A stretch of DNA of 64,000 nt from a virus (Duplodnaviria > Caudoviricetes). Position 1 is the first letter of the stretch. The number at the start of each line of letters is the position of its first letter. The stretch covers positions 64,001-128,000 of the IMG/VR virus record IMGVR_UViG_3300032243_000867. The stretch is one strand, 5' to 3'. The position numbers and the translations under genes were made by a program. This document shows, piece by piece, positions 10,086-60,875 of this stretch. Below the pieces are notes generated by a model. That model did not search any database, had not been told where the DNA came from, and saw nothing but the letters and a program-made list of their open reading frames with translations.

Positions 10086-11918
10086 ATGGCCCGCCCCATC
10101 ACCACGTTGTTTCAGCCCACCGTCATTCTCCTCGCAGAAATGTCCCTCGTCCCTCAAGGGCTCGATGACCTCGTGGAGTGGGTCGGGGACTACCGCCCGG
10201 AGTGCCTCCCCGGTGAGAGCCCCACGGGCATGGACCTGTTCCCCCACGGTGGTGCGCGCGACGACGGGGGTGTGCTCACGGGCAATGAGCTCTTGGTCGA
10301 GCTCGCGGGCCGAAATTGTTATGACAAGGAGACCGAGGTACTCACGGAAACTGGGTGGGTGAAGTTCCCGGACCTCCCCCAAGGTGTGCCCATCGCCACG
10401 TACAACCAGGGTACCGGGATGGTCGAGTATCAAGTACCGACGGACTACATCCAGAAGAAGTACACCGGGGCGATGTATCGGGTGGATTCCCGGTCAGTCT
10501 CTCTTCGTGTGACCGAAGACCATGACATCTGGCATGGGGATCGGAGCCGCTGGTGGAGCTTCTCACCGGCTCGCGAGGTGGCTGGCCATTCCTACAGGCT
10601 CCTCCGTACGGCACCCTATGCAGGGGATGGGTTCGTGGAGCCCTTCTGGGAGGTTCCCACTGACAAGTCTCTGGCATGGGCTACGTTTCTCGGGTATCTC
10701 GTGACCGAGGGTTATGTGTTCGACGGGCGCGGGAGGGGCACTGGATCAAGGGTCACTCTTTTCCAGAAGCCTGCGAAGGCAGGTCCCATTCTCGCGTGTC
10801 TGGCAGAACTGGGTTTCACCCCCCGTGTCCAGACCGATGCGCGGAATGGTGTTCTCCAGATCACTGTGGGGAACACCAAACTCGCACAGGCACTCCTCCC
10901 TTGGGCGGGGGTGCTGTCTCATCACAAGCGTCTCCCCAACCATGTTTTCAACTGGCCGATGGGTGTTCGGGCTGCGCTGGTCAACGCCATGATGGCTGGT
11001 GATGGGACCGTCACCAATGGGCACCGGGTCTTCTACACGTCTTCACCGGGGCTCGCTGAAGACATGCAGCGCCTCATCACTCTCTCCGGGAAACCGGGGT
11101 CTCTGCACAACGTCCAGAGGGTGCAACGGGAGACCGGGTTCTCGTCGCGTCACCCGAGCTACACTGTTCGGGAGTGTGGACGGAACGAAGTCACCCTCAA
11201 CAAGCACGGTGTGGCCCATGACGGGTGGGAGGAGACATCAGATGAGGATGTCTACTGCGTGACGGTGCCCAATCGAACCCTTCTCGTCCGCCGTGACCAG
11301 AAGGTGGTGGTGTGTGCAAATTGCTACCACTCCTACGGGGCCAAGGCGGGCAAGAAGTCCAACGCGGACTACATCGCCCACACCCAGAGCGGGAGCGTCC
11401 CGCACCGTTCGATCATGTACCACGCCAAGATGACCTTCTTCGTCGGCGGCATCTCACGGCGGGTCAGTCACGAGCTCATCCGGCACTACGTCGGTGCAGA
11501 CCGTAGCGAGGAAGGTTCACCGTCGCAGGAGTCCACCCGGTACACGCACCACCCGGGGCACTTTGTCGTCCCCCCGAAGATGATGGGGGACGGTAACGCC
11601 GTGGAGCAGTTCATGGCGTCGATGAGCTCCGCGTACACCGCGTACCACGAGTACATCGACCGGGAGACGGAAGCCTATCGTGCGGCGTCGGGAGAGGAGC
11701 CCAAGGGGCTGTCCCGCAAGCGCATCTACGAGGCGGCGGCGGGGTTGCTACCGATGCAATCTGCCACGTCTCTCGTGTGGACGGCCAACCCGGTGAGCCT
11801 CGCCAAGATGTTTGCGGAACGCACGGACGAAACCTCCGACGCGGAGTTTCAGCGCCTCGCCCTCCGGTGGCAGAAGCTGTGTGTCGCCCGGTGGCCCAAT
11901 CTGTTTCCGAGGGCGTAA
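10086..11918 (+). CDS. thyX: Flavin-dependent thymidylate synthase ThyX with an intein
   Basis: After intein removal it reads AGRN/CYHS, HRSIMYH, GISRRVSHELIRH and SQESTRY, all ThyX motifs. Confidence 0.85.
   Translation: MARPITTLFQPTVILLAEMSLVPQGLDDLVEWVGDYRPECLPGESPTGMDLFPHGGARDDGGVLTGNELLVELAGRNCYDKETEVLTETGWVKFPDLPQGVPIATYNQGTGMVEYQVPTDYIQKKYTGAMYRVDSRSVSLRVTEDHDIWHGDRSRWWSFSPAREVAGHSYRLLRTAPYAGDGFVEPFWEVPTDKSLAWATFLGYLVTEGYVFDGRGRGTGSRVTLFQKPAKAGPILACLAELGFTPRVQTDARNGVLQITVGNTKLAQALLPWAGVLSHHKRLPNHVFNWPMGVRAALVNAMMAGDGTVTNGHRVFYTSSPGLAEDMQRLITLSGKPGSLHNVQRVQRETGFSSRHPSYTVRECGRNEVTLNKHGVAHDGWEETSDEDVYCVTVPNRTLLVRRDQKVVVCANCYHSYGAKAGKKSNADYIAHTQSGSVPHRSIMYHAKMTFFVGGISRRVSHELIRHYVGADRSEEGSPSQESTRYTHHPGHFVVPPKMMGDGNAVEQFMASMSSAYTAYHEYIDRETEAYRAASGEEPKGLSRKRIYEAAAGLLPMQSATSLVWTANPVSLAKMFAERTDETSDAEFQRLALRWQKLCVARWPNLFPRA
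10317..11321 (+). mobile_element. Intein (335 aa) with LAGLIDADG homing endonuclease in thyX
   Basis: Starts CYDKETEVLT; block B VTEDH; LAGLIDADG motifs FLGYLVTEG and LVNAMMAGDG; ends VYCVTVP...VVCAN before Cys+1. Confidence 0.9.
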
Positions 11919-28791: not shown

Positions 28792-29337
28792 ATGACCCCC
28801 ACGAAGATCGCGGTATTTGACTTCGACGGGACGCTGTTCCGCAGTCCCGAGAAGCCCGATAGCTGGGCCGAAGGGTGGTGGGGCAACCCCGTTTCCCTGA
28901 ACCCGCCCGTGGTGCCGGAAGCCCCCGGTGTGGGTTGGTGGAACGCTTCCGTGGTGCAGCGGGCGAAGGAGGACATCGCTAGCGACGAGGTCTTCGCCGT
29001 GATGGTCACGGGGCGGCTGGCCAAGAAGTTCACCGCGCGCGTGAAGGACTTGCTGGCGCACGCGGGTCTGAAGTTCGACCGAATCTACCTAGCCCCCGGC
29101 GGCGACACGGAGTCGTACAAGCTGCGGGTGATCGGTGATCTCATCAAGGAGTTTCCCACCGTCACGGGCGTGGACCTCTGGGAAGACCGCGCCCCGCACC
29201 TTGCGAAGTTCTCGGATTTCGTGGAGTCGAAGGGCCGTGCGGCGTTCCCGCACCTTATCACCGTGTCGGCCCAGAAGCCCGAAGGGTTGCCCAGCGCCGC
29301 GAAGGTGGCGAGCTTATACCTGTCGCGGAGGCAGTGA
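28792..29337 (+). CDS. HAD-family phosphatase, Swiss-Army-Knife RNA-repair-like
   Basis: FDFDGTLFRSP, WW...WN, MVTGR, K and WEDR HAD motifs I-IV; ends KVASLYL. Confidence 0.8.
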   Translation: MTPTKIAVFDFDGTLFRSPEKPDSWAEGWWGNPVSLNPPVVPEAPGVGWWNASVVQRAKEDIASDEVFAVMVTGRLAKKFTARVKDLLAHAGLKFDRIYLAPGGDTESYKLRVIGDLIKEFPTVTGVDLWEDRAPHLAKFSDFVESKGRAAFPHLITVSAQKPEGLPSAAKVASLYLSRRQ

Positions 29338-32300
29338 TGTCGGTCGGACTGTTCCTACCCCTTCCCGAGAAGCTCGCGTCAAAATTCCCCTCGCTAGGGG
29401 ATCATGACACGTCGCCCCCGCACGCGACCCTTCTGTACTTCGGGGACGCCCCCGAGGACCGGGAGCGGTTTCTCGCGGTCATCCGTTCGCACCTGAGCCA
29501 ATGGCCGGGGAAAATCACCGCGACACTTCGCGGGCTCCGTCACTTCGACAACGCCGATGCCACGGTGGCCTACGACAGCGTGCGCTTCGACGCCGATGTG
29601 GCGGGTCTGCGTTCTTCCCTCATCGCGCACCTGTCGGACAACGGGTTCCCCTCGACGGATAGGTCTCCCGTCCGCTACTTCCCCCACGTCACGCTGGCCT
29701 ACCTACCGCCTAACAGCGTAGGTGCGTACGGGGGTCCGGTGCCCGTGGGTTCATGGACCTTCGACGAGGTGGAAGTCTGGGGTCTGGAGGATGACCCGGT
29801 GGTGCTACCGCTGGGCGGTGTATCCGTTACCCGCGTCGCCGCCCGTTACAAGTCCAAGAAGAAGATCGAAACCAAGGACGGCGACGAAGCCACGGTGTAC
29901 GAGTACAGCGACCGTCAGGTCGCCAACCGTCACCGTGAAAAGGCCGAGCGGGTCGAGCACCTGCGAAACCACATCACGGACCTCCGCGCGCGGGTGAAGG
30001 ACGATCTGAAGTCCGACGACCCCATGACCCGGATGACGGCCCTCGCCGTGTCTCTCATGGACCACACCTGTGAGCGGGTGGGGAACGACGACAGCGCAGA
30101 CGACGGCCACTACGGCGTCACGGGCTGGCTGAAGAAGCACATCACCATCCGGGACGGCAAGGCCACGATCAAGTACGTCGGCAAGTCCGGGGTCGATCAC
30201 GAAAAGACCGTGGACGACGGCCCCACGGTCACCGCCCTGAAGGAACTGTGCGAAGGGCTTGGGAAGGAAGACGCCATCTTCGACACGGACGACGCGAAGG
30301 TCAGCGCCGACGAGGTGAACGACTACCTCGCGGAGTTCGATGTCACCGCCAAGGACATCCGGGGCTTTCGCGCCAACGACGAGATGTGCAAGGCCCTACG
30401 GGCGGAACGCGCCAAGGGACCGAAAGAGCTCCCCCGCGCCCGCAAGGAGAAGGACGAGATCCTCAAGGCCGAGTTCAAGCGGGCGCTGGAGACGGTCGCG
30501 GAGGTGGTGGGCCACGAAGCCGCCACCCTACGCTCCCAGTACCTCGTGCCGGGGCTGGAAGACCAGTACGTACACGACGGGACGGTGCTGAAGTCCCTCA
30601 AGGTAGGCACCAAGACCGAAGCCCAGCGCGAGGACGAGGCCACGGAGAAGTTGGTGAAGCCCGCGCCGAAGGCAAAGCCCCCGCGCCACGATCTACGGAA
30701 CGAACGGGTGGAAGCTGAGGGCGACCCCGACCTCGACGACACCGACGACGACCTGTCGCTGAACTTCAAGAAGGTCGCGGGGATCGTTCGTGCGGCGCTG
30801 TTTGCGGGAATGTCTCGCCGCGTGTTGTCGAGATCTCAGAGCAAAGTACAAGAGTTCAAGAAGTTTCCCACTCGGGCGGACACCCGGCACCGAGTACAAG
30901 AGTTCCCCGCAGTTGATGCGAAGGCCGTTCAAGAAGAGTCGGAGTTTCAGAAATACGTCGAAGGTGAGAAATTTCGCACGAACAAGTCGGACCGAGAAGA
31001 AGGCGTGTCTTTCTCCTACCTGGAAAAGATCGACCCCCAAGCGGCCAAGAAGGTCCGAAAGGATTGGGGCAAGAAGAGAACCCAGGACACCCCTCAAGAC
31101 TCCCTTAAAAATCGGGAGAAGAAGCAAAAGGAACTGTCGAAGCCCTCTTCCCCCGAACAAATCCAGAAGCTGGTAGAGGAAATCCAGTCTTCGGAATCCG
31201 CCAAGGCTATGACCGAGGGGGACCGCGAAAACGTATCGAACCTGATCTCTTCCGTCATGGACGGTCAGAGCGGCAATTCCAACGAGAAGCTGAACGCTCG
31301 TATCGAGAAGTACAACGCGGAATCCGTCGAGAAGCTCAAGGGCGGAACGGACCGCAAGACGGTGGACGCTCTGCGAAAGGTGCCCGAGGGGCTCTACGGC
31401 AAGGGCGTGAAGATGACCACGTTCGACTCGAAGAAGTCGGGCGACGCCATCGCCAAGAAGCAGAAGGCCCGCGACAAGATCCAGAAGGACCTCGAACAAG
31501 CCAAGCGGGACGGGGAGAGCCTTCCGTCTGAAATCGAGCGGGCGAAATATGAGAAGAAGGTCAAGGAACAAGAACTCAAGGGCGAACAAACCAAGCTGAA
31601 AGGTTTGAAAGAGGGCACCCCGGAGCACGCACGCCGGAAGTCGAGAGTGTCCACGCTTCAGGCGGCTATCGAAAAGCTGGACGTTTCGATAACGGGCGGC
31701 ACCAAGAAGAGGGATGCCGACGAAAAGCTCCTTCCGGCACTGAAGGCGTCTCTGGACAAGGAGACGAGCGAACTCAACGCGATGACGGCGTATCACGTCT
31801 CGCAGGAGCACCTGTCGTCGCGTTTGACCGATATGTCGTCGTTGAAGTCGGACTCCCCCTCGGAGCGCCTTTCCGAAGCCTCCAAGCACTTGCAGGCGCT
31901 GCCCCCTGAGATGCGGGACAAGTCCATCGAACGGTCGAAGGCACGGCGGGACGAGAAGAAGAAGGAGCTGGACAACGCCTCGTCGGACGAGGAACGGGCG
32001 GCGTTGCAGAAGGAAGTCGATCTGGCCGACGCCGAGCTCGCAGCGGGGACCCACGACAAGTACCTGCGAATGGACGAGAGGGAAGCGGACGAAGACCCGA
32101 AGGCGTCCCTCTTCCGTTCGCTGAATGACCGGGGTATCGGGGTCAACGACCCCCACGTACAGACGTTGCTCCATGAGAAGGCCAACCAAGCAGACGCGGC
32201 GAAAGCTGTACGCAATCTCTCCACAGAACTATCCGACGAGGAACTCTCGGAACTGTCCAAGAAGTCTTCAACCCTCGGTCACGCCTATGAGAGTCTCAAG

Positions 32301-32804
32301 GATTCCCCCTTCCTCGCCCAGATGCTCCGAGAGATGATCGTCGAGGAGATGGTGGGGGAGTTCCAGAAGGGGCGCGCGAAGGGTAAGTCCGACAAGGGTA
32401 AGCCCCGGGACGCCGAGAAGGTGAAGGAGCTCGCGGAAGCGGCTAAGGACCTGCCCGAGAAGGACCGGGAGACCGTCAAGAAGGTCGTCCGTGAAAAAGC
32501 CAAGGACCTCCCCGCCGCGGACCGCGAGACCGTCGAGGACATCGTCGATCTGGACATCCCAGACGCCTCCAGTACGTCTACGTCAGAAGGCGGGAAACAA
32601 AAACAGACGTTGAGCCTGCCGGAGTACCGTCAGATGCTTCTCGACGGAGCCAAAGACGCCGACGCTCGCCGAAAGACCCAGGAGATGAGCTCCGAGGATC
32701 TTAAAAAGCGTTGGGAGTCATACAAAGCCGGAAAGACCGCTGGTGCCCCCCTCCCGGAGTCGGTTGCCCGCCGTTTTCTCTCTTATTCGCGGCGGGGTAG
32801 GTAG
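29334..32804 (+). CDS. Fusion protein: 2H phosphoesterase + type IB topoisomerase catalytic domain + long Lys/Glu coiled coil
   Basis: HATL and HVTL (2H); ERVGN, GKSG, AKDIRGF and VVGHEAATLRSQY (TopIB R-K-R-H-Y pentad); charged helical C-terminal region of about 680 aa. Confidence 0.85.
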   Translation: MMSVGLFLPLPEKLASKFPSLGDHDTSPPHATLLYFGDAPEDRERFLAVIRSHLSQWPGKITATLRGLRHFDNADATVAYDSVRFDADVAGLRSSLIAHLSDNGFPSTDRSPVRYFPHVTLAYLPPNSVGAYGGPVPVGSWTFDEVEVWGLEDDPVVLPLGGVSVTRVAARYKSKKKIETKDGDEATVYEYSDRQVANRHREKAERVEHLRNHITDLRARVKDDLKSDDPMTRMTALAVSLMDHTCERVGNDDSADDGHYGVTGWLKKHITIRDGKATIKYVGKSGVDHEKTVDDGPTVTALKELCEGLGKEDAIFDTDDAKVSADEVNDYLAEFDVTAKDIRGFRANDEMCKALRAERAKGPKELPRARKEKDEILKAEFKRALETVAEVVGHEAATLRSQYLVPGLEDQYVHDGTVLKSLKVGTKTEAQREDEATEKLVKPAPKAKPPRHDLRNERVEAEGDPDLDDTDDDLSLNFKKVAGIVRAALFAGMSRRVLSRSQSKVQEFKKFPTRADTRHRVQEFPAVDAKAVQEESEFQKYVEGEKFRTNKSDREEGVSFSYLEKIDPQAAKKVRKDWGKKRTQDTPQDSLKNREKKQKELSKPSSPEQIQKLVEEIQSSESAKAMTEGDRENVSNLISSVMDGQSGNSNEKLNARIEKYNAESVEKLKGGTDRKTVDALRKVPEGLYGKGVKMTTFDSKKSGDAIAKKQKARDKIQKDLEQAKRDGESLPSEIERAKYEKKVKEQELKGEQTKLKGLKEGTPEHARRKSRVSTLQAAIEKLDVSITGGTKKRDADEKLLPALKASLDKETSELNAMTAYHVSQEHLSSRLTDMSSLKSDSPSERLSEASKHLQALPPEMRDKSIERSKARRDEKKKELDNASSDEERAALQKEVDLADAELAAGTHDKYLRMDEREADEDPKASLFRSLNDRGIGVNDPHVQTLLHEKANQADAAKAVRNLSTELSDEELSELSKKSSTLGHAYESLKDSPFLAQMLREMIVEEMVGEFQKGRAKGKSDKGKPRDAEKVKELAEAAKDLPEKDRETVKKVVREKAKDLPAADRETVEDIVDLDIPDASSTSTSEGGKQKQTLSLPEYRQMLLDGAKDADARRKTQEMSSEDLKKRWESYKAGKTAGAPLPESVARRFLSYSRRGR

Positions 32805-33529: not shown

Positions 33530-34090
33530 GTGACCCCCATGAAGCCGTCCCGTAGGGCCACTTACGTCAACTACCAAGCCCGTGCCAGCGCCTTCAAGGT
33601 GGGGGACCGGGTGTACCCGATCCTCAAGGGCAACCCGAGTAACGGCGGAACCGTCGTTGCGGTGTGGCCCGCTATCGGGATGGTGGACGTTCAGTACCCC
33701 CACGGGACGGCTCGTGCCCCGGTGGAAGACCTCCTCATCGACCGTGGAACCACCATCGAGTCCGAGGTAGACATCCAATCGGATACCGTTCCGGGGGGCA
33801 CCCACACGGTGCCCGTGTCGGGCGGTCCCGGCCCCGAGAGAACGGACTCCACTCACCGGGTCGCCTCCCGGCACCTCAAGAGAGCCGTGTATTGGGCAGC
33901 GCCCAACCGTCAGTACCGCCCCACGAAGCAAGAGCTCGTCACAAACAAGCTGTGCTGCCCCCGCTGCGACGAGAGCTATCTGAGGAGGTCCACCTACAAG
34001 ATGGAGGAGGGGACTCAGGTCAAGCTGTTCGTATGTCCCTCGTGCCTTTTCATCGTTCGTCGCGACGACGTTGCAGGATTCGGGGAGTGA
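33530..34090 (+). CDS. Hypothetical protein (SH3-like + zinc ribbon)
   Basis: FKVGDRV...GTVVAV...VDVQY; RVASRHL; CPRC...CPSC. Confidence 0.6.
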   Translation: MTPMKPSRRATYVNYQARASAFKVGDRVYPILKGNPSNGGTVVAVWPAIGMVDVQYPHGTARAPVEDLLIDRGTTIESEVDIQSDTVPGGTHTVPVSGGPGPERTDSTHRVASRHLKRAVYWAAPNRQYRPTKQELVTNKLCCPRCDESYLRRSTYKMEEGTQVKLFVCPSCLFIVRRDDVAGFGE

Positions 34091-34097
34091 TCTGACC

Positions 34098-36827
34098 ATG
34101 CCTCTGATGAAGTACGCCAAAGCGATAAAGGCCCCTACCCTTTCCGCAAGCCTGTACGGCGGGGGTTGGGATAACGTCCGAGTTGCAGCTTCCCAAACCC
34201 GACTTGACCGCAACCTTTCCGATCAAGCCTCCAAGATTCTGAAGGAGACCTTCGATCCGTCGAAGTACCTCCTCAGCCATTGTACGATCGTAGCCTCGGT
34301 GGATACCGTAGAGGTACCCTCCTCCCGCCTCGGGTCTTCGATGGTGGATGGTAAGAAGGTCGTTCGTAAGACGACCGCCTACCGCATTACCCCTTCGACC
34401 GAGTGCTATGTGAACAACAACTTCGATAGCTGGGCGCGGCCCGTGCTGCTGAAGTCGTACAAGACGTTCACGGGGGCGTTCAACTTTTTGGAGCACGTCC
34501 AGATCGAGGACTTGTCCAAGGGTCGCATCCTGGACGCCGTTGCCCGGGACATCGGGGACAGCGTTTACGTTGACATCCTCATCGCCACGGATCGCAAGCA
34601 CACGGAGCTCATCAAGGACATCGAGAGCGGTGAGCTTTCTACCCTCTCGATGGGCTGTTTCCTCCCCGGCACGCAGGTGTCTCTCGCAGACGGCACCCGC
34701 GTTGCCATCGAGGACGTGCAAGTCGGGGACATGGTGCTCACCCACAAAGGCCGTTCCCGCGAGGTTCTGAACAAGCAGATCCGAGGCGGCAAGTGGGGCG
34801 TGAGGCGTATCGAAGCGGTAGGTGTACCGTCCGCCATCACGGCGACGGACATACACCCGTTCTTCGTCTTTCGTCTACCCGACGTGTGCGCGTGCGGATG
34901 TGGCGAGTCCCTACCGGCGTCCTACTCGTCGGGCAAGAGGACGGCACTACCCAATCGCCTCTCGCGGCGGTTCAAGGACGGCCACAACCTCCGCATACTC
35001 AATCCTAACGGGACGTACTCGCTGGAGGAGCGGGCCGCACGACAGGACCGTCTCGATGCCCTCTTCTCCCCCCGTATGGAAGAGGTGAAGGCGGCGGATC
35101 TCAAGGTCGGGGACTTCCTGTGTTTCCCGAGATCGCAGTTCGGCACAGGGGTGGACACCCCCCCTGGTCGAGCTCGCCTCTTGGGGTATTTCCTCGCGGA
35201 GGGAAACTTCCAGAAGCGGGACGGGAAGCACCACACCGTCGAGTTCAACTTCTCACTCCACGAGCGGGACACCTACGCCGCCGAGGTGATGAGGCTGCTG
35301 ACCGAAGAGTTCCCCGGATGCAACCCCCGGCTCTACACGGCGGGCGAGTCAGATGGGTGCGCGGCGACCGTGGTCGTCGCGGGCTCCGACATCGCGGCGT
35401 GGTTCCTTAAGCACGGCGGGGAGTACAGCCACGGGAAGCGCCTTCATCCCGACGTGATGGCGTGGAGCGTCGAGAACCAACTCCACCTTCTCGGTGCGTG
35501 GGTCAATGGTGACGGGAACCTCCAGAAGGGGGGTGCCACTTCTGTCACTACCGTGTCCTACGACCTCGTCTGCCAGATGCACGCGATCATGGCGCGCTGC
35601 GGCATCTACGCCCGAATGTACGGGTTGGTGCAGGGTAAGTCGGTCGATGTCGCGGAGGTGGTGAACGGGGGGCTCGTGCAGACCCTCTGTGACGACGGCT
35701 CTTACCGCCGTCCGTCGTTCCAACTAGACTTGGGGCAGACCCAATCACAAGCCCTTCGCGGACGGTGTGATAAGGTCAGGCTTGACCCCAAGTTCCAGAC
35801 GCAAGCCTGTCGCGTGCAGGATGACGTGGTGATGTTCCCGATCACCTCCATCGAGGCCCAGACCTACGAGGGCTGGGTTCACGACATGGAAGTCGAGGAA
35901 GACCACTCCTACGTCGTGGAGGGTGTGGCCGTACACAACTGCTCGATCGACGGCAGCACCTGCACCAAGTGCGGACATTGGGCCGCTGACGAGACTGAGT
36001 TTTGCGACCATGTCAAGTACATGAAGGGCAACACCTTCTACGACGAGAAGGGTGTGAAGCACCGCATCGCGGAACTGTGCGGCGACGTGACCCTAGATCC
36101 TACGGGCGGGGTGCAGTTCATCGAAGCTAGCTGGGTGAAGGTCCCGGCGTTCAAGGGCGCGGTTGCTCGTAACCTCATCACCCTGTCCAGCGACGACAAG
36201 GGCAAGACCGCCAAGCGCATCCAGAAAGTGGTGGGCACCCCGGCTCCGAAGGTTCCCGCCGACGGGTACTTGAAGGCGGCTCGTCGAATTCACGCTGACG
36301 AGTTTGGGCTGGACGACGCGGGCGAAGATGCCGCGAAGGAACCCGAGGCCCCCCCCGGGCCCGCCGACCCTTTGAAGGGCATCACGGACGAACTCAAGAA
36401 GTACGTCCTCGACAACCTAGCGAAGTCGCTGAAGGAAGACCTGTCGAAGTCGGACCTCACCAAGGCTCTCCTCCCCCCGGAACCGTCTACCGCACCCAAC
36501 GACACGGTGGTGAAGCAAGCTCGCGCGAAGCGGGCCGCGTACCTGTCACAGGTGCGTAGCATCGTCCGCACGGCCAGCACCGACCGGGATTTGGTACAGA
36601 AAATCGCCCGCCTGAATCGAGAACACGCGATTTTTGTTCCCGTAATTCTCTATCGCACAGCCCTAAAGGTCGGGGGTTCGCACCGTTACGCGAGCCTTTC
36701 CTCTTTCATCGGCGGGTGCCAGAAGTGTCTTGGCCGATACCCCACGGTTGGGGAAGCCCGTACGCTGATTCGTTTGGCCAAGCTGATCACAACCCGTTCT
36801 GTCGGCGTCACGCCGAAGAAGCCCTAA
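34098..36827 (+). CDS. Capsid maturation (prohead) protease with an intein
   Basis: FLEH, LSMG/C...CTKCG...CDH and FIEASWVKVPAFKGA, the HK97/assemblin-type protease pattern; located before scaffold and MCP. Confidence 0.8.
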   Translation: MPLMKYAKAIKAPTLSASLYGGGWDNVRVAASQTRLDRNLSDQASKILKETFDPSKYLLSHCTIVASVDTVEVPSSRLGSSMVDGKKVVRKTTAYRITPSTECYVNNNFDSWARPVLLKSYKTFTGAFNFLEHVQIEDLSKGRILDAVARDIGDSVYVDILIATDRKHTELIKDIESGELSTLSMGCFLPGTQVSLADGTRVAIEDVQVGDMVLTHKGRSREVLNKQIRGGKWGVRRIEAVGVPSAITATDIHPFFVFRLPDVCACGCGESLPASYSSGKRTALPNRLSRRFKDGHNLRILNPNGTYSLEERAARQDRLDALFSPRMEEVKAADLKVGDFLCFPRSQFGTGVDTPPGRARLLGYFLAEGNFQKRDGKHHTVEFNFSLHERDTYAAEVMRLLTEEFPGCNPRLYTAGESDGCAATVVVAGSDIAAWFLKHGGEYSHGKRLHPDVMAWSVENQLHLLGAWVNGDGNLQKGGATSVTTVSYDLVCQMHAIMARCGIYARMYGLVQGKSVDVAEVVNGGLVQTLCDDGSYRRPSFQLDLGQTQSQALRGRCDKVRLDPKFQTQACRVQDDVVMFPITSIEAQTYEGWVHDMEVEEDHSYVVEGVAVHNCSIDGSTCTKCGHWAADETEFCDHVKYMKGNTFYDEKGVKHRIAELCGDVTLDPTGGVQFIEASWVKVPAFKGAVARNLITLSSDDKGKTAKRIQKVVGTPAPKVPADGYLKAARRIHADEFGLDDAGEDAAKEPEAPPGPADPLKGITDELKKYVLDNLAKSLKEDLSKSDLTKALLPPEPSTAPNDTVVKQARAKRAAYLSQVRSIVRTASTDRDLVQKIARLNREHAIFVPVILYRTALKVGGSHRYASLSSFIGGCQKCLGRYPTVGEARTLIRLAKLITTRSVGVTPKKP
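34656..35939 (+). mobile_element. Intein (428 aa) with LAGLIDADG endonuclease in the prohead protease
   Basis: Starts CFLPGTQVSLADG; block B ATDIHPF; LLGYFLAEG and LLGAWVNGDG; ends VHDMEVEEDHSYVVEGVAVHN before Cys+1. Confidence 0.95.
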
Positions 36828-56613: not shown

Positions 56614-56931
56614 ATGACCCCCAGCCTGCCGATGGAAGGGCGAACGACGCCCGTCCCCTCAGCGCACGAAACGCGACTCCCCTACGACGTGCTGCAAGAC
56701 CGCCGCGAAGCCCTCTTGGTAGCGGCCCTCGCAGTCGTCGCGGTCGTCGCGGTCGTCGCCCTTGCGTTGCACTTCCGCCACCCCACGTCCACCCGCGCGC
56801 CCACCACGGAGCACCCCTGCCCTACCTGCCCCGCCGTGCCCCCGTGCCCTGCGGTGCCCCCGTGCCCCGCGTGCCCCGCGTGCCCCGCGTGCCCGACGTG
56901 CCCGCCCGAAAACACCGCAGAGCCCCTGTAG
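56614..56931 (+). CDS. Single-TM protein with CPxCP repeats
   Basis: TM segment ALLVAALAVVAVVAVVALAL, then (CPAVPP/CPA)n. Confidence 0.55.
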   Translation: MTPSLPMEGRTTPVPSAHETRLPYDVLQDRREALLVAALAVVAVVAVVALALHFRHPTSTRAPTTEHPCPTCPAVPPCPAVPPCPACPACPACPTCPPENTAEPL

Positions 56932-56940
56932 GAGGAACCC

Positions 56941-57711
56941 ATGTCAGTAGTCTTCAACCCCGGACAGACCATCGGGCAGGGTGATCTAGACATCTTCCTG
57001 ACCAACGCGGGCGGGTTTCCTGCCAATGCGGCGTCGATAACCTACGCCCTGTACTACGTCTCCCCCGGACCGCCTGAGACGGAGGTGCTCATCGGGTCCG
57101 CCACCCGCACGCCCGTCAACCCCACGGTGGGCGAGTACTACGCCTCCCTCACCGTGCCCGCGATGGCGACGCCCGGTGACTATCGCATCCGGTGGACGTT
57201 CCAGCAGTTCGCGGGTTCGCCCCCGCAACAAGTGGTGATGGAGTGGGGCGTCGTCTCGGCAGGGCTCATCGCCGTGGGTGCGTACAGCACCCTCACCCAA
57301 GGGATGATCGACAAGTTGCGGTTGCTCCTCCGAGACCAGAACCCGGACAAGTTCTACCACTTCCGGCCCCCGGAGGCCGAGGGGAACATCGGCGCGTACA
57401 ACCGCGTCTTCGGTTACGTCTGGCAGGACAACGAGCTCTTCGAGTACCTAGAGCGCGGGATGGACTGGTGGAACATGATGCCGCCCAACACGGGCGGCTT
57501 CACCCTCGACCAGATGGTCCAGCAGAAGCCCGAATGGCGCACGGCGGTCCTCTGGGACGCCATCACCCACGCTTGCTTCGCCCTCGCGTGCAATTGGGTC
57601 GTTGACGAGTTCTCGGTGAGTTCGGTTACACTACTTCACCTATCCCTGCCCGATGGTAGGAAGGTCGAGGTACCCATTGGCGAGCTCTACGACATCTGCA
57701 CCGACGAGTGA
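56941..57711 (+). CDS. Neck/head-completion-like virion protein N-extein (224 aa) + split-intein N-fragment (32 aa, 57613-57708)
   Basis: ...NWVVDEF, then SVSSVTLLHLSLPDGRKVEVPIGELYD (intein block A pattern), then stop. Confidence 0.75.
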   Translation: MSVVFNPGQTIGQGDLDIFLTNAGGFPANAASITYALYYVSPGPPETEVLIGSATRTPVNPTVGEYYASLTVPAMATPGDYRIRWTFQQFAGSPPQQVVMEWGVVSAGLIAVGAYSTLTQGMIDKLRLLLRDQNPDKFYHFRPPEAEGNIGAYNRVFGYVWQDNELFEYLERGMDWWNMMPPNTGGFTLDQMVQQKPEWRTAVLWDAITHACFALACNWVVDEFSVSSVTLLHLSLPDGRKVEVPIGELYDICTDE

Positions 57712-58657
57712 CCTGTCTCCCCGTCAAGTGTCCGTTCGGTACGGGTTCAACTCCCGCGCCGTGATGGATCTTGTTTCCGATGGAACCCTCGTGTTGAGGG
57801 GCCGGAAGGTCACCGCCGCAAGCCTATCCGCCCTCGTCGAAGGGGTGCATTACGTTCGGTGTCGGGAGTGCGGGGCGTTCGCCGCGATGATCCACTCGGC
57901 ACATCTGAAGGCGTGTTCCGGCTTGGCCTCTCTGGGCGAGTACCTAGCGAAGCATCCCGGTGCGCCCGTGATGTCGGAGCGGAACAAGGCCCGGAAAGCC
58001 AAGACCCCCTCACAGCGGGAAGCTCAGTCGCAGAAGCTCAAGGCCCGCTTCCAGACCGCCGAAGGTGATGCAACCCGCCGACAAATCGCGGACTCCTCGC
58101 GACGGATGCAAGCGTCGGAGTCCGGGCAACGTTGCAAGGATCACCTCCGCAAGATGAACTCGGACCCCGCCGTGAAAGCACAACGTAGGGCCGACACCAA
58201 AGCCCGATGGGAGTCGGGTGCCCTTCGTGAAGCCGTCGAAGGGTGGCACCGGGAACACCGGGACGAGTCCCTGTCGTCCGCCCTTCAAGCTAGGCGCTAC
58301 ATTCAACGGAAACGCACGGGCCTCCACCTCAAGTTCAAGGCCCTCATGGAGAGCAACGGGCTCCACGGGTTCGTCACCGAGTACGAGGTCGGGTACCACG
58401 CCGTGGACGAAACCCGCCCCGACTTGAAGATCGCAGTCGAAATAGACGGCTGCTACTGGCACTCTTGCCCCCAGTGCGGGCTCACCGGACCCCGGAGCAC
58501 CCTCCGCACGGACAAGACCAAGACCGCCTACTTGACCAATCGTGGGTGGACGGTGCTCCGCCTCTGGGAGCACGACATCAACCGCGACCCTATGGGGTGC
58601 CTAGATCGTATTCGTCAACTCGTCGCGGACAAGGAACGTGAGAACCATGTTGGATGA
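57653..58657 (+). CDS. Free-standing Vsr/DUF559-like endonuclease with an HTH/Zn-finger N-region
   Basis: CRECG..H..C, basic helical repeats, FVTEYEV...VD...IAVEIDGCYWH...DKTK...RGWTVLRLWEHDI; start codon uncertain. Confidence 0.8.
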   Translation: MVGRSRYPLASSTTSAPTSDLSPRQVSVRYGFNSRAVMDLVSDGTLVLRGRKVTAASLSALVEGVHYVRCRECGAFAAMIHSAHLKACSGLASLGEYLAKHPGAPVMSERNKARKAKTPSQREAQSQKLKARFQTAEGDATRRQIADSSRRMQASESGQRCKDHLRKMNSDPAVKAQRRADTKARWESGALREAVEGWHREHRDESLSSALQARRYIQRKRTGLHLKFKALMESNGLHGFVTEYEVGYHAVDETRPDLKIAVEIDGCYWHSCPQCGLTGPRSTLRTDKTKTAYLTNRGWTVLRLWEHDINRDPMGCLDRIRQLVADKERENHVG

Positions 58658-59276
58658 AGCAACCCGAGCCGCAATCCGTGAAGCCTACCGGGCTGGAAAA
58701 CTCAAGGTCGAAGCCGTAGACCCGGCGACGGGGGCAGCTTCTCTTCAGACCGTCACCGCCGTCCTGCGGCACCGCACCCCCCACAAAGACATGGTCCGGG
58801 TGACGCTGACGGACGGTCGATGGGTGGAATGCACCGTGGACCACAGCCTCTTCACCATGGCCGGGGAAGGCGTCACGCCCGTTCCCGCCGGGGAGCTCCA
58901 CGCCGGGGCCTTCATCGCCACGGTCGAGGGCGGGGTAGCCAAGGGTGTCGAGGTGGCCTCCGTCGTGTCCCTACCCCCCGAGGAACACACCTACGACCTG
59001 TCCGTGCCGGGACCCGAGAACTTCGTCCTCGCCAACGGAATCCTCGCCCACAACTCGTACTCCATCGGTGGCGTCTCGTTGGACATCGAAAAGGCCAGCA
59101 AGTACGAGAGCCTCAAGCAAAACGCTGAGTCCCAGTTCGACAAGGCGGCGGAAGCCAAGGCCCGCACCGTCAAGTTCATCCGGGGCATTCAGCAGCCCAA
59201 GTACGGGGTGGGTATTCGCAGTTCCTTCGGACCAAATGTAGGTAGAGGTGTGCTAAGTCCCCGTAATTTCCTTTGA
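58647..59276 (+). CDS. Split-intein C-fragment (136 aa, 58647-59054) + C-extein (73 aa) of the virion protein
   Basis: AAGGA SD; LKVEAVDP...block B CTVDHSLF; TYDLSVPGPENFVLANGILAHN, then Ser+1 SYSIGGVSLDIEK. Confidence 0.85.
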   Translation: MLDEATRAAIREAYRAGKLKVEAVDPATGAASLQTVTAVLRHRTPHKDMVRVTLTDGRWVECTVDHSLFTMAGEGVTPVPAGELHAGAFIATVEGGVAKGVEVASVVSLPPEEHTYDLSVPGPENFVLANGILAHNSYSIGGVSLDIEKASKYESLKQNAESQFDKAAEAKARTVKFIRGIQQPKYGVGIRSSFGPNVGRGVLSPRNFL

Positions 59277-59358
59277 ACCTCGTGTAGGCAGCGGGGTATT
59301 GACTCCTCGAACCGGAGTCCCACCGCCCCCGCCCTCAATAAAAAGTACGGTGCAGGGG

Positions 59359-59393
59359 TTGACTTCCCCAATACGGGGCTTACGATTCGGGTC
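59359..59393 (+). promoter_or_regulatory. Sigma70-like promoter for an apparently leaderless endonuclease gene
   Basis: TTGACT-16 nt-TACGAT-7 nt-ATG(59394). Confidence 0.6.
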
Positions 59394-60875
59394 ATGGAAT
59401 ACCGACCTGAAGCCCCGTGTCCCGCCTGTCAACAATCCGTCCCCCTCAAGGGTCTCGCGAAGCACGCCTCGGGGTGCCCAAAATGGGGCACGCTGGGTGT
59501 TCCCGCGTCCCTGTTCAACTGGGACGGGTACTTCAAGCGCGGCCCCTATGCGGACGGGTTGACGGAGGGCACCGACTACGTTCGGTGTCAGGAGTGCCCG
59601 GACGGGGCGCGGGGGGATCGCGGCCTCCGTCTGATGGATCACGTCAAGAAGGTTCACGGCTTGACGAAAGAGACGTACCTAGAGCGGCATCCGGGTGCCC
59701 TTCTCAACGTCCCCGCCACCTTAGAGCGCCGCAAGGCTACGGTGTCGGAGCGGTACGACGGGGCGACCAATGTGTTCCAAGTGCCCGACGTGAAGGATCG
59801 CATTCGGGACGTGATGGCCGAGAAGTACGGTGGGACCGGGGTTGGGTCTCCCGAGCTACGGGCGAAGATTGAGCAGACCAACGAGGCGCGGTACGGGAGT
59901 GCCAACCCGTTCGGGTCCGACGAGGTGCAGGAGAAGATTCGGGCGACGTGGCGGGAGAAGTACCAGTGCGACAACCCTAACCAGTCTCCTGAGATCATGG
60001 CGAAGCGTATTGCGACGAACCGCAAGACGCACGGTGCGGATCACTACGTCGAGACCGACGATTTCAAGGGGAAGTTCAAGGCGGCGAGCCAAGAGCGGTT
60101 CAAGGCGGACCATCCGATGCAATCGGAAGAGGGTAAGCAGCTTTGTTTTGATGGGGTACAAGCAAACCACGGGGTTGATACCGTATTCAGTTTGCCTGAA
60201 GTCCAGAAGCGGGCCTACGAGTCCAACCTTGCAAACCACGGCGGGAAGCACTCGCAGCAGTGCCCCGAGGTGCTGGAGAAGGCGCGGGAGACGTGGCGGG
60301 AGAAGTACAACACGGACAACCCGTCGAGGGTCGAGGCCGTCAAGCAGAAGATCAAGGACGTGTGGGAGGGGAAGTACGGGGTTCCGTTTCCGCCGCAGAG
60401 CTTGTGGCTGAACCAGACGCACTCGTCTCCCAACGGGCTGGAGCGGAAGGTTCAAGCGATGCTCCCCGTGTACGTCCTCTACACGGGGGACAAGACGTAC
60501 AACGTGAGGTTGCCCGGTACTTCACGGGACAAGTACCCCGACTTCGTGGTGCTGGCCCCGGATCAGTTGCTGGCCTACCAATCTGGGACGCCCTTGAAGT
60601 CCCTTCGGATCGAGGCTGTCTGCGAGGCGTTTGGTTCGTACTGGCACGGCCCGGAAATGACGGGGGTGTCCCGCGACGACCACTACAACGAGGTCATGGA
60701 CTACTATGCCCGGTGCGGACTTCGGTGCTTGATCTTGTGGGAGCACGACGTAGACGGGCAACCGGGCGAGGTGGCCGATCAGCTTCGGCGGTTCCTGTCC
60801 GACGTGGCGGGGGACGTAACACCTTCTGGCGGCGGGGGTGACCCGTCTGTTCTGGATTTTTTTCGAGGGGCTTGA
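59394..60875 (+). CDS. Free-standing homing-endonuclease-like protein (Zn fingers + EKYG/NP helical repeats + Vsr-like nuclease)
   Basis: CPAC..H...C, CQEC...H, repeated (E/R)(K/R)YG..NP motifs, KYPDFVV...EAFGSYWH...ILWEHD. Confidence 0.75.
   Translation: MEYRPEAPCPACQQSVPLKGLAKHASGCPKWGTLGVPASLFNWDGYFKRGPYADGLTEGTDYVRCQECPDGARGDRGLRLMDHVKKVHGLTKETYLERHPGALLNVPATLERRKATVSERYDGATNVFQVPDVKDRIRDVMAEKYGGTGVGSPELRAKIEQTNEARYGSANPFGSDEVQEKIRATWREKYQCDNPNQSPEIMAKRIATNRKTHGADHYVETDDFKGKFKAASQERFKADHPMQSEEGKQLCFDGVQANHGVDTVFSLPEVQKRAYESNLANHGGKHSQQCPEVLEKARETWREKYNTDNPSRVEAVKQKIKDVWEGKYGVPFPPQSLWLNQTHSSPNGLERKVQAMLPVYVLYTGDKTYNVRLPGTSRDKYPDFVVLAPDQLLAYQSGTPLKSLRIEAVCEAFGSYWHGPEMTGVSRDDHYNEVMDYYARCGLRCLILWEHDVDGQPGEVADQLRRFLSDVAGDVTPSGGGGDPSVLDFFRGA

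What the first reader, a model, noticed from the sequence alone, without database searches (positions are those of the whole stretch)
56941..59276. Virion gene fractured by an atypically split intein (32-aa N-fragment) with a free-standing Vsr-like endonuclease gene inside the split
Seen in sequence: ORF 56941-57711 ends with NWVVDEF|SVSSVTLLHLSLPDGRKVEVPIGELYDICTDE-stop, which is intein block A only. ORF 58647-59276 carries the rest of a mini-intein (block B TVDH, blocks F/G ...ILAHN) followed by Ser+1 SYSIGGVSLDIEK. A DUF559/Vsr-like nuclease ORF sits between them and overlaps both. Established knowledge: fractured phage genes with split inteins flanking Vsr-like homing endonucleases are known, mostly in replication/metabolic genes and with long N-fragments; short-N-fragment (atypical) splits are rare and valued for protein engineering. 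Inference: trans-splicing joins 224+73 aa into a neck/head-completion-like protein of about 297 aa with the junction DEF-SYS, using Ser at both position 1 and +1. An atypical split in a structural gene would be unusual.
Basis: partly seen in the sequence, partly recalled or inferred. Interest (0 to 1): 0.82.

Follow-up and report, generated by a model that had tools for sequence, protein, structure and literature searches.

The report
Split-intein phage neck gene, serine type
A giant phage encodes its head-to-tail adaptor (neck) protein as two genes that must be joined by a two-piece, serine-using self-splicing element with a selfish nuclease gene between them; the layout is a known kind, but the serine chemistry combined with a short first piece has one published natural precedent.

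Summary

**What is there**
- ORF1 (56941-57711) is a 224-aa N-extein plus a 32-aa intein N-fragment that starts with Ser.
- ORF3 (58647-59276) is a 136-aa intein C-fragment (TVDH, ...AHN) followed by Ser+1 and a 73-aa C-extein.
- A DUF559/Vsr-like nuclease ORF lies between them in a third frame.

**Main evidence**
- Over 180 retrieved intein-free homologues of about 297 aa read ...DEF-[D/S]YSIGG... without a break.
- One metagenome contig lacks exactly 57613-59054.
- The three-ORF layout recurs in four fetched relatives and in one independent contig from another sample.
- IntC and the nuclease are under purifying selection (dN/dS about 0.2).
- The two intein pieces are predicted to dock: score 0.84, best control 0.00.
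- The extein folds like phage head-to-tail adaptor and neck proteins.

**Wider picture**
- Of the copies retrieved at this site, 127 are split and 19 are one-piece.
- A homologous intein occupies a second site of the same gene and is split at the same loop by an unrelated TnsA-like nuclease.

**Verdict:** a new member of a known kind. A March 2026 paper names PolB16 as the only known natural Ser1/Ser+1 atypically split intein. First readers of this scan noted the same family on other DNA. Splicing itself is untested.

The parts
56941..57612 (+). N-extein (224 aa) of the head-to-tail adaptor/neck-like protein: an N-terminal beta-sandwich plus most of the helical domain
   Evidence: ORF. Homologues. 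AF2 model of the intein-free homologue P0005. Fold matches to phage adaptor/neck chains.
57613..57711 (+). Intein N-fragment: 32 aa, Ser1 at 57613-57615, one non-catalytic Cys29, then the stop at 57709-57711
   Evidence: Sequence. All about 19 fractured N-halves among the best hits carry a Ser-first tail at the same place. The equivalent stretch of the one-piece homologue P0268 aligns to TIGR01445 positions 2-33. It docks on IntC in the complex model.
57653..58657 (+). Free-standing homing-endonuclease-like gene (up to 334 aa; the start may be 57653, 57731 or 57764). It has an N-terminal C-x2-C...H-x3-C zinc-finger-like motif (about 57860-57916) and a C-terminal DUF559/Vsr-like nuclease domain (about 58370-58627, motif DGCYWH)
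   Evidence: Pfam DUF559 at 26.6 bits (cut-off 20.6), MTES_1575 and a weak Vsr hit. PHROG endonuclease and homing-endonuclease families. TIGR00632 vsr at 30 bits, below its cut-off. Conserved residues in four homologues. dN/dS 0.21.
58647..59054 (+). Intein C-fragment (136 aa). Its own ATG overlaps the nuclease stop. Features: candidate motif-NX R41-H42, block B T63-x-x-H66 (58833-58844), block F YDLSVPG, terminal H135-N136, one non-catalytic Cys62
   Evidence: The His in VL[RQK]H is invariant in all 28 homologues printed. dN/dS 0.19.
59055..59276 (+). C-extein (73 aa), starting with the Ser+1 nucleophile at 59055-59057; stop at 59274-59276
   Evidence: The sequence continues without a break in intein-free homologues.

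Best explanation
The gene for the head-to-tail adaptor (neck) protein of an uncultured freshwater huge phage is a 'fractured gene'. A class-1 mini-intein sits at the invariant ...DEF|xYSIGG... site. A free-standing DUF559/Vsr-like homing-endonuclease gene has landed in the loop about 32 residues into that intein and cut it in two.

The phage therefore makes two polypeptides:
- N-extein plus a 32-aa IntN;
- a 136-aa IntC plus the C-extein.

Inferred mechanism:
1. The two intein pieces dock into one Hint fold.
2. Ser1 forms an ester at Phe(-1).
3. Ser+1 attacks that ester.
4. Asn136 cyclises.
5. A 297-aa adaptor is released with the junction DEF-SYS.

The nuclease presumably spreads the cassette to alleles that lack it during co-infection.

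Shown here: the anatomy, the empty-site and one-piece alleles, conservation of the layout, purifying selection, and predicted docking.
Inferred: trans-splicing, its efficiency, and nuclease activity and target.
For: **Anatomy and domain models:**

**Empty site**
- 98 of the best 120 N-half hits are 295-328 aa and read across the site.
- Over all sets, 190 empty-site sequences were found.
- Tunturiibacter phage Tunturi_5 gp319 and the LR745208.1 homologue also read across it.
- An X5 contig joins 57612 to 59099 with 44 nt between. That is an allele lacking exactly the 1442-bp cassette.

**Same layout elsewhere**
- L008, L009, L010 and L011 come from four other samples, with C-half (ORF3-equivalent) identity to the window falling to 55%.
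- The X3 contig spans the whole stretch with only three compensated indel pairs.

**Catalytic set**
- The best 120 C-half hits all carry HN followed by Ser (104) or Thr (16).
- Every N-tail printed starts with Ser.
- The His preceded by R/K/Q that marks Ser1 inteins (PMC10189870) is invariant in the homologues printed.

**Selection against L011:** dN/dS is 0.15 for the N-extein, 0.21 for the nuclease, 0.19 for IntC and 0.06 for the C-extein.

**Docking:** ipSAE 0.84 against a best control of 0.00. That mark was reached by 51 of 78 solved complexes and 2 of 108 mismatched pairs.

**One-piece forms at the same site:** 19 were retrieved, including P0269 on a 444-kb contig.

**Host protein**
- The helical domain of the model matches phage portal-tail and neck chains. 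Examples are 7z47_A (Z 9.9, rmsd 2.7, 104 aligned), 9nwi_A, 7wmp_m, 9k09_d, T4 neck entry 9lu4_D (Z 8.7) and the phage 812 neck chain 8q01_b.
- PHROG 17327 'head-tail connector' hits at E 1e-3 and spans the junction only in the joined form.
Against: - No experiment and no RNA or protein data. All runs that hold the stretch are DNA assemblies.
- The docking score may partly reflect the model's memory of solved split inteins (caveat).
- The window's own IntN is too short to hit any HMM. Its assignment rests on position, on one-piece homologues and on the docking model.
- IntN had only three substitutions against L011, so its dN/dS is uninformative.
- The adaptor assignment rests on middling Z scores for a helical domain (the tool warns that Z under about 13 can be generic for helical folds), one weak PHROG hit and another record's annotation.
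- The nuclease is below the true-Vsr cut-off (30 bits against 97.85). Its start codon is unsettled.
Confidence: 0.88

Rival explanations
1. The intein halves are remnants that no longer splice. Either the two adaptor halves work as a non-covalent pair held together by the docked intein pieces, or the gene is dead and another gene supplies the adaptor.
For: Splicing has not been observed. The docking model would equally fit non-covalent complementation. Ser1 inteins are often slow (PMC10189870).
Against: Ser1, TxxH, the candidate NX His, HN and Ser/Thr+1 are kept in over 100 diverged copies. A non-splicing scaffold would not need them. Every retrieved allele that bears the intein has Ser or Thr at +1, whereas most empty alleles have Asp. 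Both exteins are under strong purifying selection. I did not search the 266-kb record for a second adaptor gene; the record is only about 59% complete.
Confidence: 0.08
2. Assembly or sequencing frameshifts make a contiguous intein with an internal nuclease domain look like three ORFs.
For: The window comes from a metagenome assembly. The only run holding all of it may be its own source.
Against: Four fetched relatives from other samples show the same stop after IntN, the same third frame for the nuclease and the same ATG-over-stop overlap. An independent contig spans the stretch with compensated indels only, none at an ORF border. All split C-halves begin with Met at the homologous position.
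Confidence: 0.02
3. The 1.4-kb insert is a self-splicing intron carrying a nuclease ORF, removed at the RNA level.
For: Vsr-like nucleases also occur in group I introns (PMC2677866).
Against: No Rfam intron model matches at E up to 1. Both borders carry in-frame intein motifs that are conserved as protein. One-piece protein versions without the nuclease exist.
Confidence: 0.01

Closest known systems
'Fractured genes' of Dassa, London, Stoddard, Schueler-Furman and Pietrokovski 2009 (PMC2677866)
   Same: A phage gene in two pieces on one strand, each piece carrying one intein half. A free-standing Vsr-like putative homing-endonuclease gene lies between them, with overlapping reading frames.
   Different: Their hosts were DNA synthesis, repair and packaging enzymes: gp41 helicase, IMPDH, DnaE, NrdA, NrdJ, ligase and terminase. 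Here the host is a virion neck/adaptor-like protein. Split and one-piece forms and a second occupied site can all be compared within one gene family.
PolB16 OarG intein (Pasch et al. 2023, PMC10189870)
   Same: Naturally and atypically split. Ser at both position 1 and +1. A His preceded by a basic residue upstream of block B (motif NX). Two non-catalytic cysteines, one of them in block B.
   Different: PolB16 has a 15-aa IntN and a 168-aa IntC, sits in a PolB polymerase and came from a sheep gut metagenome. Here IntN is 32 aa, IntC is 136 aa, the host is an adaptor gene and the source is freshwater huge phages. No structural comparison with PolB16 was made here. Activity here is untested.
AceL-TerL, GOS-TerL and VidaL atypically split inteins (cited in PMC13014065; names and lengths partly from my own knowledge)
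   Same: A short N-fragment within the published natural range of 15-37 aa. Phage or metagenome origin.
   Different: PMC13014065 describes VidaL as cysteine-dependent. That the TerL inteins use at least one catalytic Cys is from my memory. Their hosts are terminase or other enzymes. I did not compare sequences with them.
Site-a intein of the same gene family in LR745208.1 (L002 6001-8375)
   Same: Homologous intein (32% identity, E 4e-15) in the same adaptor gene, split at the same loop with a 33-aa IntN.
   Different: Inserted at LLRDQ|CPD, 91 residues upstream. It uses Cys1/Cys+1. The intervening nuclease is TnsA-like (PF08722, 39 bits) and unrelated to the window's.

Membership tests
Class-1 intein (Hint domain), split form | Nucleophile (Cys/Ser) as the first intein residue, directly after the N-extein | tested here: met
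   Ser225 of ORF1 follows ...DEF, the last residue shared with intein-free homologues.
Class-1 intein (Hint domain), split form | N-terminal splicing region (blocks A and B, with TxxH) | tested here: met
   TIGR01445 matches ORF3 over profile positions 34-83 only (26.3 bits, cut-off 24.5). The one-piece homologue P0268 matches positions 2-82 starting at its residue 225. TVDH is at ORF3 63-66. The window's own 32-aa IntN is too short to score alone.
Class-1 intein (Hint domain), split form | C-terminal splicing region (blocks F and G) ending in His-Asn, followed by Ser/Thr/Cys at +1 | tested here: met
   TIGR01443 scores 37.2 bits (cut-off 15.6) at ORF3 114-137. H135-N136-S137.
Class-1 intein (Hint domain), split form | Homologues without the insert read continuously across the site | tested here: met
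.
Class-1 intein (Hint domain), split form | Protein (trans-)splicing activity | not testable with these tools
   Only a docking prediction: 0.84 against a best control of 0.00. That mark was reached by 51 of 78 solved complexes and 2 of 108 mismatched pairs.
Fractured gene (Dassa 2009) | Two gene halves with intein halves, separated by a free-standing endonuclease ORF in its own frame | tested here: met
   Frames 1, 2 and 3. The layout recurs in L008-L011.
Vsr-like putative homing endonucleases (Dassa 2009) / DUF559 | Vsr-type nuclease core with the conserved Asp, the aromatic-Trp-His motif and a later Asp | tested here: inconclusive
   DUF559 is above its cut-off (26.6 against 20.6). Pfam Vsr and TIGR00632 are below theirs. 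P256, E263, D265-G-C-Y-W-H270 and D287 are invariant in four homologues. No structural alignment to Vsr was made. A close relative has YYH in place of YWH.
Atypically split inteins | Short N-fragment (published natural range 15-37 aa) and a long C-fragment | tested here: met
   IntN is 32 aa and IntC is 136 aa. The range is from PMC13014065.
Cysteine-independent (Ser1 with Ser/Thr+1) inteins with motif NX | Ser at position 1 and Ser/Thr at +1 | tested here: met
   S225 of ORF1 and S137 of ORF3. Among homologues, 104 have HN-Ser and 16 have HN-Thr.
Cysteine-independent (Ser1 with Ser/Thr+1) inteins with motif NX | Conserved His preceded by Arg/Lys upstream of block B | tested here: inconclusive
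   R41-H42 in IntC. The His is invariant in the 28 homologues printed and is preceded by R, K or Q. Equivalence to PolB16 His68 was not checked on a structure.
Cysteine-independent (Ser1 with Ser/Thr+1) inteins with motif NX | No cysteine anywhere in the intein (strict sense) | tested here: not met
   Cys29 in IntN and Cys62 in IntC. Wild-type PolB16 likewise has two non-catalytic cysteines.
Phage head-to-tail adaptor / neck protein (T4 gp13-like, podovirus adaptor-like) | Adaptor helical-bundle fold | tested here: inconclusive
   At least 12 of the top 50 chains by VIA-align come from portal-tail or neck complexes, at Z 7.3-9.9 over residues 113-294. Every helical-domain match in the top 50 is a phage tail, portal-tail or neck chain. 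Z is middling for a helical domain. Foldseek against PDB gave only Ig-like matches to the N-domain. A sequence profile against PDB found nothing.
Phage head-to-tail adaptor / neck protein (T4 gp13-like, podovirus adaptor-like) | Presence in virions at the portal | not testable with these tools
   Only the annotation of Tunturi_5 gp319 as 'head-tail connector protein' and PHROG 17327 at E 1e-3.

The most novel reading that the evidence does not exclude
This is the second natural family of atypically split Ser1/Ser(Thr)+1 inteins after PolB16, and by far the more diverse one. Well over 100 diverged natural split variants were retrieved, along with matched one-piece forms.

Because these inteins must build a stoichiometric virion part at ambient temperature, some may splice fast. 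That would supply the efficient cysteine-independent, short-IntN tool the field says it lacks (PMC13014065).

The family also shows three further things:
- one intein loop invaded by two unrelated nucleases;
- repeated switching between split and one-piece states;
- an extein Asp that moves from +1 to +10 whenever +1 must be Ser or Thr.
Probability: 0.55. Interest if true: 0.68.

Novelty: new member of a known kind. Interest (0 to 1): 0.58.

Why it matters
**For protein engineering**
- Split inteins that need no cysteine and have a short first piece are wanted for protein semisynthesis under oxidising conditions.
- A March 2026 paper states that PolB16 is the only known natural one, and that it is slow (PMC13014065).
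- This family offers more than 100 natural variants with 32-37-aa N-pieces, plus one-piece relatives for comparison.

**For biology**
- An essential virion part of many huge freshwater phages depends on protein trans-splicing.
- Empty, one-piece and split alleles, two insertion sites and two unrelated nucleases all occur in one gene family. That makes it a natural series for studying how fractured genes arise and revert.

Tried and rejected
- **Megablast against phage records:** 6 kb around the locus gave no match.
- **Foldseek of the whole adaptor model against PDB:** only Ig-like matches to the N-terminal domain.
- **Sequence profile of the adaptor family against PDB:** no hit.
- **BFVD:** only unnamed phage proteins, including Bacillus phage G gp165.
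- **Rfam scan of 56800-59400:** nothing.
- **Promoter and terminator scan:** no signal inside the cassette. The only promoter-like site lies upstream of the next gene.
- **dN/dS against L008 and L010:** unusable because synonymous sites are saturated. L011 was used instead.
- **Three-piece version of the gene (both sites split):** not found among the best 120 hits of three searches. This does not exclude it.
- **RNA evidence:** no run on record as RNA holds the stretch.
- **Papers on inteins in adaptor or neck genes of phages:** none found in the library searched. That is not proof that none exists.
- **Frameshift artefact and intron readings:** considered and rejected (see the rival explanations).
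Full report
**1. What is in the sequence**

- ORF1 (56941-57711, 256 aa) ends ...NWVVDEF followed by a 32-residue tail that starts with Ser and stops after ...DICTDE.
- ORF3 (58647-59276, 209 aa) starts with its own ATG. It carries TVDH at residues 63-66 and ...ILAHN at 132-136, then continues SYSIGGVSLDIEK.
- The middle ORF (57653-58657) overlaps both neighbours.

Domain models agree with this reading.

- Pfam finds Intein_splicing in ORF3 (E 1.6e-13) and DUF559 above its cut-off in the middle ORF.
- NCBIfam finds the intein C-terminal region above its cut-off.
- NCBIfam also finds the intein N-terminal region in ORF3, but only from profile position 34 onwards. The first third of the domain is therefore missing from ORF3.
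- In a one-piece relative (P0268) the same model matches from position 2, starting directly after ...EEF.
- The closest solved relatives of IntC are archaeal mini-inteins (Pho CDC21-1, E 1.7e-9; Pho RadA, E 1e-7). The alignment offset is about 31-33 residues, the size of the missing N-piece.

**2. Where it comes from**

The window is part of a 265,895-bp viral record judged 59% complete, that is, a huge phage. The stretch, or parts of it, occurs mostly in freshwater, lake and subsurface metagenomes.

**3. The empty site**

- The N-half has 831 database relatives. Of the best 120, 98 are 295-328 aa long and read ...NWV.DEF-xYSIGG... without a break. They include P0005 (297 aa; 91% identity over 95% of ORF1).
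- The cultured Tunturiibacter phage Tunturi_5 (309 kb) has an intein-free homologue annotated as head-tail connector.
- At DNA level, a 307-bp contig from a subsurface metagenome joins position 57612 to 59099 with 44 letters between. That is an allele lacking exactly 57613-59054, the 1442 bp that encode IntN, the nuclease and IntC.

**4. Not an assembly artefact**

- The same three-gene layout occurs on contigs from four other samples: an N-half (256 aa where complete), a nuclease of 297-322 aa, and a C-half of 209-230 aa whose start overlaps the nuclease stop. These are L008, L009, L010 and L011, with C-half (ORF3-equivalent) identity to the window falling to 55%.
- An independent 7.8-kb lake-water contig covers the whole stretch at about 90% identity. 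It differs only by three compensated indel pairs, none at an ORF border.
- No intron model matches.

**5. Is the intein intact?**

- All of the best 120 C-half relatives carry the Pfam intein domain. They end in His-Asn followed by Ser (104) or Thr (16).
- Every N-tail printed begins with Ser.
- Pasch et al. 2023 describe a His preceded by Arg/Lys as a mark of Ser1 inteins. A matching His stands at R41-H42 of IntC and is invariant in the homologues printed. I did not confirm the equivalence on a structure.
- Against the close relative L011, dN/dS is 0.15 (N-extein), 0.21 (nuclease), 0.19 (IntC) and 0.06 (C-extein). IntN had too few changes to judge.
- A complex prediction of IntC with the last 46 residues of ORF1 scored 0.84 against a best control of 0.00. 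That mark was reached by 51 of 78 solved complexes and 2 of 108 mismatched pairs. Because split inteins have been solved, part of the score may be memory.

**6. The nuclease**

- Its C-terminal domain matches DUF559, MTES_1575 and, weakly, Vsr.
- The motif DGCYWH, a preceding Glu and a later Asp are invariant in four homologues. [quoted passage not shown] 2009 described in half of their fractured genes.
- It falls short of the true-Vsr cut-off, so I call it Vsr-like only.
- Its start codon is unsettled. Gene callers differ, and a conserved YGFN motif lies upstream of the ATG at 57764.

**7. The host protein**

- An AlphaFold model of the intein-free homologue (mean pLDDT 73) has a beta-sandwich (1-105) and a helical domain (117-270). 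The insertion site lies just after the long helix 197-221, in a stretch with the invariant residues E223, F224, Y226, S227, G229 and G230.
- An exhaustive structural comparison matched the helical domain to chains of phage portal-tail and neck complexes: SU10, Pa223, KHP30, cyanophage A4, GP4, VP1, the T4 gp13/gp14 neck entry and the phage 812 neck, at Z 8-10. The beta-sandwich matched generic Ig-like domains.
- Z values of this size are not decisive for helical folds. However, every helical-domain match in the top 50 is a phage tail, portal-tail or neck chain.
- PHROG 17327 (head-tail connector) hits weakly, and spans the junction only in the joined form.
- I therefore treat 'head-to-tail adaptor' as probable, not proven.

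**8. The wider family**

- Over all retrieved sequences, site b (the window's site) holds 127 split and 19 one-piece inteins.
- A second site, 91 residues upstream (LLRDQ|[C/S]PD), holds a homologous intein (32% identity, E 4e-15). It is split in 82 retrieved sequences and one-piece in 3.
- In LR745208.1 that second intein is split at the same loop (33-aa IntN). The nuclease there is TnsA-like (PF08722) and unrelated to the window's.
- Some genes have site a split and site b one-piece (P0268, P0269, P0291). I found none with both sites split.
- I built a tree of the C-parts from 109 rows and 131 columns. It used a random subsample of the split forms and left fragments out. Site-a inteins form one clade (SH-aLRT 99).
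- In that tree, one-piece and split forms are interspersed. Well-supported branches force at least 3 changes at site b. This suggests repeated gain or loss of the nuclease gene, but resolution is low.

**9. An extein detail**

- Empty alleles with Asp at +1 have Ser, Thr or Asn at +10 (161 sequences).
- Alleles with Ser, Thr, Asn or Gly at +1 almost always have Asp or Glu at +10. This holds for 123 of 125 intein-bearing alleles and for all 26 such empty alleles.
- The acidic residue seems to move when +1 must be a nucleophile.
- The sequences are related to one another, so this is an observation and not a test.

**10. Comparison with what is known**

- The layout is that of the fractured genes of Dassa 2009, whose hosts were replication, repair and packaging enzymes.
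- Natural atypical splits have N-pieces of 15-37 aa. [quoted passage not shown]
- The present intein has the same chemistry and, like wild-type PolB16, two non-catalytic cysteines.
- I found no paper on an intein in a phage adaptor gene.
- First readers of this scan have noted the same family on other DNA: e1-5368067, e1-5376826 and e1-5376832. Related fractured terminase, uvsX and clamp-loader genes have been followed up.

**11. Verdict**

This is a real, intact-looking, naturally and atypically split Ser1/Ser+1 intein with a Vsr-like nuclease gene, in a probable neck gene of a huge phage. It is a new member of a known kind. Its practical interest lies in its rare chemistry and its large natural diversity. 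Trans-splicing, its speed and the nuclease's target remain to be shown.

Noticed in passing
window 59394-60875: A free-standing DUF7487 homing-endonuclease-like gene (493 aa, PHROG 'homing endonuclease') lies just downstream of the fractured gene. A sigma-70-like site sits at 59359-59386. A homologous gene holds the same place in L002, L008, L009, L011 and L012 but is absent in L010.
   Followed up: partly
L002 6001-8375 (LR745208.1): The same adaptor gene is fractured at another site (LLRDQ|CPD) by a homologous Cys1/Cys+1 intein with a 33-aa IntN. The intervening nuclease is TnsA-like and unrelated to the window's. Two different nucleases therefore hit the same intein loop.
   Followed up: yes
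C-extein positions +1 and +10 (window 59055-59057 and 59082-59084) across about 315 homologues: Near-perfect swap. Asp at +1 goes with Ser/Thr/Asn at +10. Ser/Thr/Asn/Gly at +1 goes with Asp/Glu at +10. Twenty-two empty alleles carry the intein-type Ser+1/Asp+10 pattern; they may be lost-intein or receptive alleles.
   Followed up: partly
relatives P0190/P0209 and P0303/P0285 in the tree: One-piece and split forms of the intein are interspersed on the tree, which suggests repeated gain or loss of the nuclease gene. The alignment is short and support is limited.
   Followed up: partly
window 34071-36827: A 918-aa ORF carries a conventional large intein with a LAGLIDADG domain (about residues 196-623). 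The host protein was not identified.
   Followed up: no
window 10086-11918: A 610-aa ORF has a ThyX domain at its C-terminus and a LAGLIDADG_3 hit at about 295-343. It may be another intein or a nuclease fusion.
   Followed up: no
own genome G000:C1:53098-54027 and C1:176401-176502 (outside the window): Two further Intein_splicing matches lie in long open frames (1022 and 929 aa). The phage is rich in inteins.
   Followed up: no
window 29334-32804: A 1156-aa ORF combines a eukaryotic-type topoisomerase IB catalytic core (E 5e-27) with a 2'-5' RNA ligase-like domain.
   Followed up: no
window 56614-56931: A small ORF just upstream of the adaptor gene has a hydrophobic segment and a run of Cys-Pro repeats (CPxCP, VPPCP), encoded by a short tandem DNA repeat.
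   Followed up: no
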